This document shows, one piece after another, positions 3,050-57,650 of a stretch of DNA of 64,000 bases (its first letter is position 1; every line of letters starts with the position of its first letter). The DNA lies in contig CP086569.2 of the NCBI GenBank assembly GCA_009914755.4, positions 256,001 to 320,000 on the forward strand. Direction: 5' to 3'. The notes beneath the pieces are model-generated. The model was not told the origin of the DNA. It searched no databases and was given only the letters and a program-made list of their open reading frames with translations. Position numbers and translations under genes: made by a program. The stretch is from the human T2T-CHM13v2.0 reference genome, Homo sapiens.

Positions 3050-3600
3050 GGCCGGGCACGGTGGCTCACGCCTGTCATCCCAGCGCTTCGGGAGGCCGAG
3101 GCGGGTGGATCATGAGGTCAGGAGCTCGAGAACATCCTGGCCAACATGGAGAAACCCCATCTCTACTGAAAATACAAACTTAGCCGGGCGTGGTGGCTCA
3201 CGCCTGTCATCCGAGCACTTTGGGAGGCCGAGGCGGGCGGATCACGAGGTCAGGAGCTCAAAAGCAGCCTGACCAACATGGAGAAAGCCTGTCTCTACTA
3301 AAAATACCAACTTAGCCGGGCATGGTGGTGCACGCCTGTCATCCCAGCGCTTCGGGAGGCCGAGGCGGGCGGATCATGAGGTAGGGAGCTCGAGACCAGC
3401 CTGACCAACATGGAGAAACCCTGTCTCTACTAAAAATACAAAATTAGCCGGGCGTGGTGGTGGCAGGTGCCTGCAATCCCAGTTACTCAGGAGAGGCTGA
3501 GGCAGGAGAATCGCTTGAACCCGGGAGGCGGAGGTTGCAGTGAGCCGAGATCGCACCCCTGCACTCCAGGCTGGGCAACAGAGCAAAAACTCTGTCTCAA
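3050..3600 (+). mobile_element. Alu with its left monomer triplicated: three tandem left-arm monomers (3050-3183, 3184-3315, 3316-3447) followed by a single right arm (3448-3600)
   Basis: gccgggc[ag][ct]ggtgg[ct]tcacgcctgtcatcc...ggatca[ct]gaggtcaggagctcgag...aacatggagaaaccc..tctctact.aaaataca occurs three times at about 132-bp spacing before the canonical right arm gcctgcaatcccagttactcaggag...gcactccaggctgggcaacagagc. Confidence 0.85.
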
Positions 3601-3602
3601 AA

Positions 3603-3656
3603 ATAATATAATAATAATAATAATAATAATAATAATAATAATAATAATAATAAAAA
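3603..3656. repeat. (AAT)n microsatellite forming the tail of the preceding Alu
   Basis: aataatataataataataataataataataataataataataataataa. Confidence 0.95.
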
Positions 3657-4471
3657 CAACTGTTTTCATGCTGCAGACAGCACACAGGCCAGGACGTCAG
3701 GGTCTCGTGAGGGGCCGTCGGAGAACGTCTAAGGGACGTCCCTGCATTCCTGGCTGGAGGTCCTGCGCCAGCGCCCTCCTTGTGAGAAAACTTTCGCTCT
3801 GCAAACTCTCAGAGCCCCCACCTGCTCCCGCCTCCCGTCTGTCCTGGTTCTTGGGACCCCGGAGCCTTCTCTCTCCAGACCTCCCAGGTCCTGACGGGAA
3901 TCCGGATAAACTCCTTGGGGCGAAGGTGTTAACGGCAGGGCCCCTGTCTAATGTATTTCGCCACCCAGATAAAATGAGTGTTTTCACAGCTGCCGTTAAT
4001 TTCTTACCCTGAGGAAGAAAGGAAGGACTTTGAGGCACCTGCGGCCGGGTTGGGGTGGGGCAGGGGGATTTCTGGACGCGGACGGCGTGTGGGGAGTTCC
4101 TGGGGTCCCCAGAGCCACACCACGTAGGTGGCAGCCGGCTCCGTCCTGCAAAGCCCCGGCTTCGGTGAAAGATTTATCACCTGCTCGGCCTCGGAGACGG
4201 GGAAGAAAAACACAGCCTGGAAGTGGTCCTGGCTGATGGACGGGCCCCTGGGGAGCTGTCCCCAAATGCGCGTCTTCTTTCTCCTTTCTGTCACAGCCTC
4301 CCGGCCCTGCCCTGGCTGAGTGGGGCTTTCAGTGAACGCTTGTTGAGTGTCCACGGAGCTGTGAGTGCTGTTCCGGGTGCTGGGTACGTGGTGGGGTGTG
4401 TGAGGTTCCCTCCTCTCTAGTGCAGAGATCAGGAGTGAGTAGACAAAGAAAATAGCATCTAACTGCTGCTT

Positions 4472-5684
4472 GTGATGAGTTTTTTTTTTTTTTTTTTTGA
4501 GACAGAGTCTTGCTCTTGTTACCCGGGCTGGAGAGCAATGGCGTGATCTTGGCTCACGGCAACCTCTGCTTCCGGGTTCAAGGCATCCTCCTGCCTCAGT
4601 CTCCCGAGTAGCTGGGAGTACAGGCACCTGCCACCACGCCTGGGTAATTTTGTATTTTTAGTAGAGACGGGGTTTCACCATGTTGGTCAGCCTGGTCTGG
4701 AACTCCTGACCTCAGGTGATCCATCCATCTCGGCCTCTTAAAGTGCTGGGATTACAGGCGTGAGCCGCCATGTCTGGCCTTTTTTTTTTTTTTTTTTTTT
4801 TTTTTGAGATGGTCTTGCTCTCATTGCCCAGGCTGGAGTGCAATGGTGCAATCTTGGCTCACTGCAACTTCTGCTTCCGGGTTCAAGGCATCCTCCTGCC
4901 TCAGCCTCCCGAGTAGCTGGGATTACACGTGTGCACCACCATGCCCGGCTAATTTTGTATTTTTAGTAGAGACTGGGTTTCACTATCTTAGTTAGGCTGG
5001 TCTCGAACTCCCAACCTCATGATCTGCCCGCCTCAGCCTCCCAAAGTGCTGGGATGACAGGCATGAGCCACCGCACCTGGCCTATTTTTTTTTTTTTTTT
5101 TGAGACAGAGTCTTGCTCTTACTGTGTAGGCTGGAGTACAGTGGGCGAACTCGGCTCACTGCAACCTCTGCTCCGGGGTTCAAGGCATCCTCCTGCCTCA
5201 GCCTCCCGAGTAGCTGGGATTACAGGCGCCCACCACCACTCCTGGGTAATTTTGTATTGTTAGTAGAGACTGGGTTTCACTATGTTAGTCAGGCTGGTCT
5301 CGAACTCCTGACCTCAGGTGATCCACCCACCTCGGCCTCCCAAAGTGCTGGGATGACAGGCGTGAGCCACCGTGCGTGGCCTTTTTTTTTTTTTTTTTTG
5401 AGATGGAGTCTTGCTCTCATTGCCCAGGCTAGAGTGCAATGGGCGAACTCGGCTCACTGCAACCTCCACTCCCGGGTTCAAGGGATCCTCCTGCCTCAGC
5501 CTCCTGAGTAGCTGGAATGGCAGGTGCATGTCACCATGTTTGGCTAATTTTTTTTTTTTTTTTTCATAAAGACAGAGTCTTGCTAGGTTTCCCAGGCTGG
5601 TCTCAAACTCCTGGCCTCAAGTCATCCTCCCACCTCAGCCTCCCGAAGTGCTGGGATTCCAGGCGTGAGCCACCGTACCTGGCC
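4472..5684 (-). mobile_element. Cluster of four abutting antisense Alus (4472-4779, 4780-5083, 5085-5381, 5382-5684), each beginning with its own poly-T
   Basis: Four consecutive tttttt..gagacagagtcttgctc...gtgctgggat[tg]acaggc[ag]tgagccaccg units. Each later element sits in the A-tail of its neighbour. Confidence 0.9.
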
Positions 5685-56170: not shown

Positions 56171-56689
56171 AAAAGAAAGAGGGACTGGAAGAGATATCTG
56201 CTCGCTCACGTTTGTAGGAGCACACACATGGAAACCATCCAGGTGTCCCTCAGTGGATGAATCGATAAACAAACAGTGGTTCACTCACTTTGTGCCCACC
56301 CAGTGGAGTACTATACAGCCATGAAAAAGAATGAGGCTGTGACCTAGGCTGCAACGTGGATACACCCTGAAGAAGTCACACTCAGCGATATTTCCTTTGG
56401 CTTATTGTACAATCCCCTTACGTCAACTGTCCGGAAGCGGCCAATGCACAGAGAGAGAGCTCAGATGAGTGGTTGCCACAGGCTGTGGGGAGGGAATGAG
56501 GAGGAACTGCTTCCTGGGGAGGGGGTCTCCTTTTATGGGGAGAAGGATGTTCTGGAAGTAGACAGAGGGGGTGGTTACACGGCGCAGTGATGTTCTCAAT
56601 GCCACTGAGATTTTCACGGCGGTTAAAGTGGTGAGTTTTATGTTGTGAAATTTATGGTGAATTTCATATAATACGTTTTATGTCATTGC

Positions 56690-56900
56690 AGTGAAAAACA
56701 ACACAATCCCGGCCCTCCTACGGCCCCCGCCTTCCCTCTGTGTCTGCGGTCTGTACCCTACGAACGCCTAGGACGCTAGACGGGATCCCTCCCCACGGAG
56801 CTATATAGGAAGGTGAACCCAGTCTGGGGTTCCTGAGCTGCTACGGCTCACTGCTTCCTTTCGGAAATTGGTGTATTGTCTTTGGAAAATGACTTCACAC
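56690..56900 (+). promoter_or_regulatory. Candidate TATA-type promoter (tatatagg at about 56803) in a unique CpG-retaining island
   Basis: ctacgaacgcctaggacgctagacgggatccctccccacggagctatataggaaggtgaacccagtctggggttcctgagctgctacggctcactgcttcctttcggaaattgg. A TATA-like box has CpG-rich flanks. No downstream ORF is identified. Confidence 0.2.
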
Positions 56901-57009
56901 AAACCTGCTCACAGATATACCCGGTCCCAGATATGCCTAAGTGAGCGGAGACTACCGTGTCCTGAAACAGCATCTTCTCTTTTAAAAAATGTTGTGTTTT
57001 TTGTTTTGT

Positions 57010-57650
57010 CTTTTTTCTTTTTTTTGAGATAGGATCTCACTGTGTTGCCCAGGCTGGAGTGCAACAGTGTAATCATAGCTCACTGCAGCCTCAACTTCCC
57101 AGGCTCAAGCGATCCTCCTGCCTCAGCCTCCCAAGGAGCTGGGATTACATGTGTGCACCACCATGCCTGGCTAATTTTTTGATCTTTTGTAGAGATGAGA
57201 CCTCACTATGTTGCCCAGGCTGGAGTGCATCAGTGTAATCATAGCTCACTGCAGCCTCAACTTCCCAGGCTCAAGCGATCCTCCTGCCTCAGCCTCCCAA
57301 GTAGCTGGGACTACATGTGTGCGCCACCACGCCCGGCTAAGTTTTTGATCTTTTGTGGAGATCAGGCCTCACTATGTTGCCCAGGCTGGAGTGCAGTGGT
57401 GTAATCATAGCTCACTGCAGCCTCAACTTCCCAGGCTCAAGTGATCCTCCCACCTCAGCCTTCTAAGTATGTGGGATTACAGACATGCACCATCACGCCC
57501 AGCTAAGTTTTTGATTTCTTTTGGTACATACAGGGTCTCACTATGTTGCCCAGGCTGGTCTTGAATTCCTGGGCTCAAGTGATCCTCACTCCTCGGCCTC
57601 CCAAAGTGCTGAGATTACAGGCGTGAGCCACCATGCCTGGCCTCTTTTTT
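57010..57650 (-). repeat. Tandem array of three copies (about 170 bp each) of an antisense Alu right-arm half (57010-57190, 57190-57355, 57360-57530), completed by a left-arm segment (57530-57650)
   Basis: The unit ga[gt][ac][gt][ag]a[gt]..cctcactatgttgcccaggctggagtgca.cagtgtaatcatagctcactgcagcctcaacttcccaggctcaag[ct]gatcctcc..cctcagcct.c.aagta..tgggattaca..[tc][ag]tgc[ag]cca[cu]ca.gcc..gctaa[gt]tttttgat is reiterated at about 170-bp spacing. Confidence 0.85.

What the first reader, a model, noticed from the sequence alone, without database searches (positions are those of the whole stretch)
3050..57650. Recurrent intra-Alu tandem amplification elsewhere in the window
Three further Alus carry internal tandem amplifications. 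A left monomer is triplicated at 3050-3447. A right-arm half is repeated about 4 times at 33585-34300. A right-arm half is repeated 3 times at 57010-57530. Together with the 155-bp array, this makes four independent cases in 64 kb, which is unusual. It suggests that this region is prone to replication slippage or unequal sister-chromatid exchange at the 100-200-bp scale. That fits its overall minisatellite richness.
Basis: seen in the sequence. Interest (0 to 1): 0.5.

Follow-up and report, generated by a model that had tools for sequence, protein, structure and literature searches.

The report
Tandem amplifications inside Alu repeats
Six Alu repeats in this human, minisatellite-rich window carry internal head-to-tail duplications, mostly made by mispairing of the Alu's two similar halves; this is a known, ordinary kind of repeat evolution that is only modestly over-represented here.

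Summary

- **3050-3598 (+):** left-left-left-right, period 132.
- **33564-34577 (-):** one complete Alu plus four extra right arms, each with a tail (five right arms in all).
- **57026-57642 (-):** Alu positions 1-250 | 85-250 | 85-282, period 166. The unit spans both arms.

I found two more cases: 54103-54515 (left-left-right) and 28673-29041 (87-bp internal duplication). Each is bounded by a single target-site duplication. Two look-alikes (60357, 34585) are old free left monomers, not duplications.

The 132-134 and 166 bp periods match the distance between homologous positions in the Alu's left and right monomers (135 or 166 bp). The size is therefore set by Alu geometry, not by the region.

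Ages differ. Three cases are as old as their insertion. Three, including the 155-bp array, grew later in several steps.

In 383 kb of control human DNA, about 2% of Alus show such structures, against about 9% here (p = 0.017-0.19). For arrays of three or more copies, p = 0.006-0.03.

The region does look recombination-hot: 26% of it is tandem arrays, and Alu substitutions are GC-biased.

This is a known kind of feature, of low interest. One unexplained side observation is a recurrent A>C change in the Alu core motif.

The parts
3050..3445 (+). Site A: three left-monomer units (3050-3181, 3182-3313, 3314-3445). Units 2 and 3 begin with the right-monomer-type start AGCCGGGCGTGG and then switch to left-monomer sequence.
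3446..3598 (+). Site A: the single right arm, followed by an (AAT)n-modified tail at 3602-3653.
34296..34577 (-). Site B: the complete Alu. The left arm is 34441-34577 and right arm B0 is 34296-34440, joined by the canonical linker CAAAAATTAGC.
33564..34295 (-). Site B: four extra right arms, each with an A-rich tail. B1 is 34113-34265, B2 is 33932-34081, B3 is 33774-33931 and B4 is 33594-33751. The terminal tail is 33564-33593. Every junction reads A(n)-GAAAATTAGC.
57026..57642 (-). Site C: an AluJ-type element. Positions 1-84 lie at 57559-57642. Three 166-bp units (positions 85-250) lie at 57390-57558, 57224-57389 and 57058-57223. Positions 251-282 lie at 57026-57057. Both internal junctions fall in the CCAGCCTGGGC block that the two monomers share.
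35770..37175 (-). Site D: the 155-bp array, 8 copies at 98% identity. Each unit is about 7 bp resembling the 5' flank (ATCTGTT; the flank reads ATGTGTT) plus a left monomer carrying the 31-bp insert normally specific to the right monomer. The array ends in a normal linker, right arm and tail (35770-35935).
54077..54524 (-). Site E (not in the finding): a left monomer at 54382-54515 directly followed by a full Alu at 54103-54381. The whole structure is bounded by the direct repeat ATAATCCCAG (54077-54086 and 54515-54524).
28638..29054 (-). Site F (not in the finding): one Alu with an 87-bp internal tandem duplication of positions 141-227 (28816-29041 | 28673-28814). It is bounded by a perfect 12-bp target-site duplication, GAAAGCAAACTC (28638-28649 and 29043-29054).

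Best explanation
These are Alu-derived tandem arrays formed in place. An Alu is a dimer of two monomers that are 77-86% identical. When the left monomer of one copy pairs out of register with the right monomer of the sister chromatid or homologue, an exchange or a repair event duplicates exactly one homology offset. The same can happen on one strand during replication or break repair.

The position of the crossover decides the product:
- Near the 5' ends of the monomers it gives left-left-right with period about 133 bp (sites A and E).
- In the shared CCAGCCTGGGC block, 3' of the 31-bp insert specific to the right monomer, it gives 166-bp units (site C).
- Between the A-rich linker and the poly(A) tail it gives extra units of right arm plus tail, 158-183 bp long (site B).

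Once two units exist, ordinary unequal exchange between whole units adds more copies and mixes their variants. That accounts for B, C and the 155-bp array D.

**Shown:** the anatomy, the junctions, the match between periods and offsets, and the relative ages.

**Inferred:** the molecular pathway (meiotic unequal exchange, slippage, or repair synthesis), and the idea that a high local recombination rate explains why three arrays grew to 3-8 copies.

For A, E and F the first duplication is as old as the insertion. It may instead have happened during reverse transcription.
For: **Periods match the monomer offset**
- Aligning the left and right monomers of the consensus gives an offset of 135 bp for left positions 1 to about 83, and 166 bp for positions about 85-132.
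- The observed periods are 132 (A; the units carry a 2-bp subfamily deletion), 133-134 (E) and 166 (C).

**Junctions are in phase and hybrid**
- Units A2 and A3 start with the right-monomer type AGCCGGGCGTGG and then continue as left-monomer sequence.
- Both site C junctions read right-type GCACT, then the shared CCAGCCTGGGC, then left-type AACATAG.

**Units share private changes**
- All three C units share 6 non-CpG and 7 CpG changes. C1 and C2 share 8 more and are 95.7% identical at non-CpG sites.
- B2 and B3 share a 3-bp deletion. B1-B3 are 95-97% identical, where the background mean is 88% and the 95th percentile is 94.6%. All four B junctions read GAAAATTAGC instead of the canonical CAAAAATTAGC.
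- The A units share the rare variants 78C and 103A.
- Unrelated Alu pairs in the window share on average 0.27 rare variants, with a maximum of 4.

**Single insertion events**
- One target-site duplication bounds the whole of E, and one bounds the whole of F.
- The D unit includes sequence resembling the 5' flank, so that duplication happened at the DNA level.

**The class is general**
- Four left-linker-left cases in control human DNA have the same in-phase junction.
- Recombination between left and right monomers of Alus is documented: 25 of 663 chimpanzee-specific Alu recombination deletions were of this type (PMC2041999).

**Regional context**
- 25.7% of the window is tandem arrays, against 1.0% of the control, and Alu substitutions are GC-biased.
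Against: - For A, E and F the changes private to each unit (4.5-6%) equal the divergence of the single-copy arm (about 5%), and no CpG decay is shared by all units. DNA-level exchange cannot therefore be told apart from an event at insertion.
- Site B is a mosaic: B0 with B4, B1 with B3, B2 with B3, and B0 with B2 and B4 each share some variants. A simple stepwise tree does not fit. The interior units B1-B3 are also closer to the consensus than B0, which needs gene conversion or a second source.
- Site F (87 bp) does not follow the monomer-offset rule.
- The local excess rests on a small control biased by short-read assembly; p ranges from 0.006 to 0.19 depending on the count used.
- No orthologous or population data could be obtained.
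Confidence: 0.68

Rival explanations
1. The multimers were born at insertion. During target-primed reverse transcription, the L1 reverse transcriptase jumped between homologous positions of the left and right monomers, or between the linker and the poly(A) tail, on one or two Alu RNAs. The element therefore integrated already carrying the extra unit. In this reading the region plays no role in starting the arrays.
For: A, E and F appear as old as their insertion. Changes private to each unit match the divergence of the single-copy arm, and no CpG decay is shared by all units. A single target-site duplication encloses the whole of E and the whole of F. The same left-linker-left structure recurs in unrelated control loci. 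Ahmed & Liang 2012 proposed that retrotransposition starts many tandem repeats derived from transposable elements (PMC3389668).
Against: It cannot explain site C, where 13 changes shared by all units predate the first duplication. It cannot explain the later steps in B and C, or site D, whose unit contains sequence resembling the flank. I found no direct experimental report of monomer-level template jumps in Alu.
Confidence: 0.2
2. The units are separate 5'-truncated Alu insertions. Each would have landed in the A-rich tail of the previous one, each with its own target-site duplication.
For: Each site B unit has its own A-rich tail, of varying length. Alus do insert into each other's tails. 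The head-to-tail full-length clusters at 4499-5684 and 51756-52688 look like that.
Against: Units at A and C abut with no intervening bases, no tail and no target-site duplication. The four B units would all have to be truncated at the same nucleotide, with the same private junction GAAAATTAGC. B2 and B3 share a 3-bp deletion, and B1-B3 are more alike than 95-99% of unrelated Alu pairs. E and F each have one target-site duplication around the whole structure.
Confidence: 0.04
3. The arrays are an assembly artefact: spurious expansion or stutter of Alu sequence in the assembled window.
For: Repeats are where assemblies go wrong. The copy number of the 98%-identical 155-bp array is the least secure figure.
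Against: Units in A, B, C, E and F differ by 4-14%, with unit-specific substitutions, which an assembler does not invent. A 163-residue reading frame from the window (6959-7450) is found identical in 10 independent human-associated metagenome contigs, so the sequence is accurate where I could check it.
Confidence: 0.03

Closest known systems
Alu-derived minisatellites, and tandem repeats derived from transposable elements generally (Jurka & Gentles 2006, Gene 365:21, as cited in PMC3389668 and PMC6947457; Ahmed & Liang 2012, PMC3389668)
   Same: Parts of an Alu are repeated head to tail in place. Most such repeats have 2-3 copies, and older elements carry more copies. Ahmed & Liang list a class of 'partial Alu next to a full-length Alu' with 136 loci.
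   Different: Ahmed & Liang counted only arrays with at least 95% identity between units: 2,663 Alu-derived arrays, involving 0.18-0.40% of Alus, with no genomic hotspots seen. Only the 155-bp array here would qualify. The mechanism they cite is short direct repeats of 5-10 bp flanking the unit. Sites A, C and E instead use the long homology between the two monomers, and their periods are fixed at 135 or 166 bp.
Alu recombination-mediated deletions between the left monomer of one Alu and the right monomer of another (Han et al. 2007, PMC2041999)
   Same: Out-of-register recombination between the homologous left and right monomers: 25 of 663 events, about 4%. The hotspot they report, TGTAATCCCAGCACTTTGGGAGG at positions 24-45, lies in the same conserved core.
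   Different: Those events join two separate Alus and delete the DNA between them. Here the partners are the two halves of the same element on misaligned copies, and the product is a gain of one unit.
Classical GC-rich minisatellites of chromosome ends, which grow by unequal exchange or conversion near meiotic hotspots (my own knowledge of the Jeffreys-type literature; not tested here)
   Same: Multi-step growth, a mosaic of variant repeats (site B), younger copies in the interior, and a neighbourhood dense in other minisatellites with a GC-biased substitution pattern.
   Different: The units are 130-180 bp of Alu sequence rather than 10-60 bp GC-rich motifs. Copy-number polymorphism was not tested.
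Free left Alu monomers lying next to a dimeric Alu
   Same: In a repeat map they look like 'left-left-right'.
   Different: The two examples in the window (60357-60483 and 34585-34711) are 77-85% identical to the consensus. They are less like the adjacent left arm (76-79%) than random Alu pairs are (86%), and 5-7 bp separate them from it. They are independent old elements, not duplications.

Membership tests
Alu-derived tandem repeat / minisatellite formed in place | The units are Alu sequence arranged head to tail, with at least 2 copies. | tested here: met
   TRF calls, jump alignment to the Alu consensus, and 88-100% Alu coverage of each array.
Alu-derived tandem repeat / minisatellite formed in place | The units descend from one another locally: they share private changes, or resemble each other more than they resemble other Alus. 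| tested here: met
   Met for C (13 changes shared by all units; C1-C2 95.7% identical), for B1-B3 (3-bp deletion, 95-97% identical), for all B junctions, and for D (98%). Weaker for A (2-4 shared rare variants against a background mean of 0.27). For E and F it rests only on in-phase structure and a single target-site duplication.
Alu-derived tandem repeat / minisatellite formed in place | At least 95% identity between units (working criterion of Ahmed & Liang 2012). | tested here: not met
   Only the 155-bp array reaches 98%. A is 88%, B is 85-91%, C is 89%, E is 83% and F is 84%. This is a detection threshold, not a biological criterion.
Alu-derived tandem repeat / minisatellite formed in place | The unit is flanked by short direct repeats of 5-10 bp (the Haber-Louis / Jurka-Gentles model of initiation). 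| tested here: inconclusive
   In A, C and E the 'direct repeat' is the much longer homology between the two monomers; at site C the identical block is 11 bp, CCAGCCTGGGC. I did not resolve the junctions of D and F to a clear short repeat.
Independent 5'-truncated Alu insertions by target-primed reverse transcription | Each unit has its own poly(A) tail and its own target-site duplication, and the truncation points are unrelated. | tested here: not met
   There are no tails or target-site duplications between units in A and C. The four B units share one truncation point and one junction. E and F each have a single enclosing target-site duplication.
Polymorphic minisatellite (variable number of tandem repeats) | Copy number varies between individuals. 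| not testable with these tools
   The public contigs that carry this locus are at most 3.5 kb long and do not reach any array.
Free left Alu monomer plus an adjacent Alu | The extra monomer is much older than the neighbouring left arm and unrelated to it. | tested here: not met
   Not met for A and E, whose units are 89-91% identical to each other and in phase. Met for the two rejected look-alikes at 60357 and 34585.

The most novel reading that the evidence does not exclude
The window may lie in a domain with very high meiotic recombination, where two things happen to Alus. First, Alu dimers are repeatedly turned into growing arrays with the monomer-offset period. Second, the conserved Alu core motif suffers a site-specific A>C change (TGTAATCCCAG to TGTCATCCCAG) in about 45% of copies, against a few percent elsewhere. 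The change occurs in both arms, in Alus of all ages and on both strands, and is not linked to other variants. That pattern would fit a local, motif-directed mutation or transmission bias, for example erosion of a recombination-initiating motif by biased gene conversion. If so, Alu cores would serve as natural reporters of such a process.
Probability: 0.15. Interest if true: 0.55.

Novelty: new member of a known kind. Interest (0 to 1): 0.2.

Why it matters
Practically, these arrays are a trap for repeat annotation. They appear as overlapping or truncated Alu fragments and can be miscounted as several insertions.

Conceptually, the rule that period equals the left/right monomer offset offers a simple way to start many Alu-derived tandem repeats. 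The main survey of these repeats left most of them without an explanation. The different ages in one window also separate two classes: duplications as old as the insertion, and arrays that kept growing afterwards.

None of this would surprise a specialist in repeats. The more interesting lead is the side observation. A GC-biased substitution pattern plus one hyper-recurrent A>C change in the Alu core could mark a strong local recombination or gene-conversion regime.

Tried and rejected
**Look-alikes and weak signals rejected**
- Head-to-tail clusters of full-length Alus (4499-5684, four copies, TRF period 305; 51756-52688). Pairwise identities are ordinary and the copies share 0-2 rare variants. 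I treat them as independent insertions into A-tails.
- The pair at 12977/13277 is unresolved. Its identity ranks 19th of 903 pairs and the second copy has no A-tail.
- The 'left-left-right' look-alikes at 60357 and 34585 are old free left monomers.
- An apparent G>C excess at Alu position 198 disappeared when I counted exact strings.
- I tested whether the A>C core variant travels with a haplotype, which would point to gene conversion from one donor. No other position was significantly associated with it.

**Searches that led nowhere**
- A scan of viral contigs for the Alu core found nothing.
- Literature searches for trimeric or three-monomer Alus, and for the variant motif as a sequence string, returned nothing relevant. 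Searches on template switching gave only generic statements.
- Trying to fetch other copies of this locus: the reading frame at 20581-21321 is not on record. Three of ten other frames are, but the contigs that carry the one I fetched (6959-7450) are at most 3.5 kb and do not reach any array. They show only that the window is human DNA.
- Target-site duplications around the whole of A and D could not be found. Those of B and C are A-rich and uninformative.
- Reading frames of 130 codons or more were listed to look for a gene that would place the window. All lie in repeats or look like noise.
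Full report
**What the window is**

The window is GC-rich (51.3%). BLAST against Alu consensus sequences gives 89 non-redundant Alu fragments covering about 33% of it. Tandem arrays with period of at least 10 bp cover 25.7% of the window.

A 163-residue reading frame from 6959-7450 is found identical in ten contigs assembled from human gut, oral and other human-associated metagenomes. The window is therefore human DNA, and it is accurate where I could check it.

**Checking the observation**

I then aligned each region to the Alu consensus with a dynamic program that allows jumps in consensus position.

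- **Site A**, 3050-3598 (+): positions 1-145 | 11-152 | 18-146 | 144-282. That is three left monomers followed by one right arm.
- **Site B** (-): a complete Alu at 34577-34296, followed in Alu orientation by four more right arms. Each starts in the A-rich linker (position 121-130) and each ends in its own A-rich tail. There are five right arms in all.
- **Site C**, 57642-57026 (-): positions 1-250 | 85-250 | 85-282. The repeated unit is 166 bp and spans the end of the left arm, the linker and most of the right arm.
- **Site E**, 54515-54103 (-): positions 1-134 | 2-282.
- **Site F**, 29027-28673 (-): positions 16-227 | 141-281.

None of the window's ordinary Alus is flagged by the same TRF screen.

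**Duplications or separate insertions?**

I placed each unit on consensus coordinates and compared it with 43 other full-length Alus from the window as a background. CpG sites were excluded.

- Unrelated Alu pairs are 86-88% identical. They share on average 0.27 rare variants per pair, with a maximum of 4.
- **Site C.** All three units share 6 non-CpG and 7 CpG changes relative to AluJo. C1 and C2 share 8 more and are 95.7% identical.
- **Site B.** B2 and B3 share a 3-bp deletion, and B1-B3 are 95-97% identical. All four junctions read A(n)-GAAAATTAGC, whereas this Alu's canonical linker reads CAAAAATTAGC. One junction was evidently created once and then copied.
- **Site A.** The units share the rare variants 78C and 103A, and they abut with no tail between them.
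- **Sites E and F.** Each is enclosed by a single target-site duplication: ATAATCCCAG at 54077-54086 and 54515-54524, and GAAAGCAAACTC at 28638-28649 and 29043-29054.

The method does discriminate. The extra left monomers at 60357-60483 and 34585-34711 are old (77-85% identical to the consensus). They are less like their neighbouring left arm (76-79%) than random pairs are. They are free left monomers, not duplications.

**Why these sizes**

Aligning the left and right monomers of the consensus shows 77% identity in AluSx and 86% in AluJo. The offset between homologous positions is 135 bp for left positions 1 to about 83. It is 166 bp for positions about 85-132, because the right monomer carries a 31-bp insert. 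The observed periods are exactly these:

- 132-134 bp at A and E. The A units carry a 2-bp subfamily deletion.
- 166 bp at C.

The junctions are hybrids in phase:

- A2 and A3 begin with the right-monomer type AGCCGGGCGTGG and continue as left monomer.
- Both C junctions read right-type ...GCACT, then the shared 11-bp block CCAGCCTGGGC, then left-type AACATAG....
- At B the join lies between the poly(A) tail and the second A-run of the linker. These are homologous 3' ends of the two monomers. The result is units of right arm plus tail, 158-183 bp long.

One mechanism therefore accounts for A, B, C and E: out-of-register pairing of the two monomers, with different crossover points. Site F (87 bp) does not follow this rule.

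**The 155-bp array (site D)**

Each unit consists of about 7 bp resembling the 5' flank (ATCTGTT; the flank reads ATGTGTT) plus a left monomer that carries the right monomer's 31-bp insert. After the array come a normal linker, right arm and tail.

That hybrid monomer can itself be produced by two monomer-offset exchanges or by a conversion tract. Because the unit includes flank-like sequence, its amplification must have happened at the DNA level.

**Ages**

- **A, E and F.** Changes private to each unit (A: 5, 7 and 5 of 111 sites) match the divergence of the single-copy arm (6 of 117). No CpG decay is shared by all units. These duplications are as old as the insertion, within the resolution available. 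A template jump by reverse transcriptase at insertion cannot be excluded.
- **C.** The first duplication came after roughly 40% of the element's history, as shown by the 13 shared changes. The C1/C2 split is recent, with 1-2 private non-CpG changes each.
- **B.** This is a mosaic. B0 and B4 share 141A, 225C, GATTA and GGGTGCC. B1-B3 share 144A, 198A and 278A. B0, B2 and B4 share 242T. TRF also detects a two-unit period of 339 bp. This is the pattern of an array reshuffled by repeated unequal exchange and conversion.
- **D.** At 98% identity between units it is the youngest.

**Is the clustering unusual?**

I built a control from human DNA that contaminates public prokaryotic genome and metagenome assemblies. 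Scanning for the conserved Alu core sequence returned 184 loci totalling 383 kb. They contain 276 Alu fragments of at least 100 bp, of which 163 lie in contig interiors.

The same screen plus inspection finds six structures inside Alus in the control:

- four left-linker-left cases with the same in-phase junction,
- one 85-bp duplication,
- one 102-bp triplication.

The general rate is therefore about 2% per Alu. The window has 6 in about 67 elements, or 9%.

| Comparison | Window | Control | Fisher p |
|---|---|---|---|
| Any structure, all control fragments | 6 of 67 | 6 of 270 | 0.017 |
| Any structure, interior fragments only | 6 of 67 | 6 of 157 | 0.19 |
| Three or more copies, all control fragments | 4 of 67 | 1 of 270 | 0.006 |
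| Three or more copies, interior fragments only | 4 of 67 | 1 of 157 | 0.03 |

The control is small and mostly short-read. It was also seeded on a left-arm motif, which inflates left-left cases. I read the result as a modest excess, concentrated in arrays that kept growing.

Published work agrees that the class is common. It reports 2,663 Alu-derived minisatellites at 95% identity or more in the human genome, involving 0.18-0.40% of Alus, with no genomic hotspots noticed (PMC3389668). Recombination between left and right monomers is also documented in Alu-mediated deletions (PMC2041999).

**Regional context**

Independent evidence suggests the region is recombination-active.

- Tandem arrays are about 8 times denser than in the control.
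- In Alu right arms, non-CpG changes from A/T to G/C affect 7.2% of A/T sites, against 4.7% in the control (odds ratio 1.58, p = 7e-6). Changes in the opposite direction are not raised (4.7% against 5.7%). This is the signature expected from GC-biased gene conversion.

It does not support a preference for 100-200 bp. Other arrays in the window have periods of 20, 41, 65, 174, 230 and 383 bp.

**Verdict**

The arrays are internal duplications of a known kind. Their sizes are dictated by the dimeric structure of the Alu. Three are as old as their insertions, and three grew later in a region that shows signs of high recombination. The clustering is modest and not firmly established. Interest is low.

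The most notable result is incidental: a recurrent A>C change in the Alu core motif, described under 'noticed in passing'.

Noticed in passing
window-wide; TGTCATCCCAG (either strand) starts at 191, 456, 2610, 3073, 3337, 5049, 5348, 6581, 13000, 13300, 13897, 19787, 20279, 22473, 22607, 24568, 34409, 35644, 37954, 38331, 52517, 53777, 54482, 61729, 62085: The conserved Alu core motif TGTAATCCCAG reads TGTCATCCCAG 25 times against 30 canonical copies in the window. In 383 kb of control human DNA the counts are 3 against 318. The control was seeded on the canonical motif, so a fairer comparison is non-seed control Alus, which have C at position 27 in 4 of 57 cases, against 16 of 42 in the window. 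The homologous site in the right arm is not affected by the seeding and shows 9 of 43 against 4 of 181 (p = 6.5e-5). The change occurs in AluJ, AluS and AluY copies on both strands and is not linked to other variants. It is concentrated in the first 25 kb (16 C against 7 A) compared with the rest (9 against 23). It lies inside the hotspot for Alu recombination-mediated deletions reported at Alu positions 24-45 (PMC2041999). I have no explanation for it.
   Followed up: partly
all full-length Alus of the window (43 copies): Alus here show a GC-biased substitution pattern. In right arms at non-CpG sites, changes from A/T to G/C affect 7.2% of A/T sites, against 4.7% in control Alus (p = 7e-6). 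Changes from G/C to A/T are 4.7% against 5.7%. CpG retention is similar (33% against 31%).
   Followed up: partly
7450-8296, 9217-10047, 10275-11116, 14695-15265, 15399-19284, 22707-23296, 25586-26684, 38681-39473, 42425-44796, 48612-49894: Minisatellite density is exceptional: 19 arrays with period of at least 10 bp cover 25.7% of the window, against 1.0% of the control. Examples are 65 bp x 13 (97% identity), 20 bp x 42, 41/80 bp x 93 (3.9 kb), 174 bp x 4.9, and 383 bp x 3.3 (94%).
   Followed up: no
12977-13553: Two head-to-tail full-length Alus are more alike than usual (89.4% identity at all sites, rank 19 of 903 pairs). Both start with GGAC.CAGTG, and the second has no A-tail. This may be a tandem duplication of a whole Alu (period 300). 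I did not resolve it.
   Followed up: partly
35942-37175: The monomer amplified in the 155-bp array is a left monomer that carries the 31-bp insert normally specific to the right monomer. This implies an earlier exchange or conversion between the two arms, before the amplification.
   Followed up: partly
loci L020-L052 (e.g. CBDIHZ010000017.1), L021 (NZ_HF570958.1), L031 (NZ_CP180204.1): Exact 34-base Alu core matches occur in 64 contigs of public bacterial or archaeal genome records. They include about ten 6-13 kb contigs of a 'Roseivirga sp.' metagenome-assembled genome that are full of Alus, and two large records: Nostocoides japonicum (5.2 Mb) and the Georgenia sp. SUBG003 chromosome. This looks like human contamination or chimeric assembly in those records.
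   Followed up: no
L185 (ERZ505018 NODE_65071), 1268-2842: A metagenome contig that carries the human reading frame from window 6959-7450 also carries a 524-residue gene with transposase domains (DDE_Tnp_1 family). It is probably a chimeric assembly of human and bacterial DNA.
   Followed up: no
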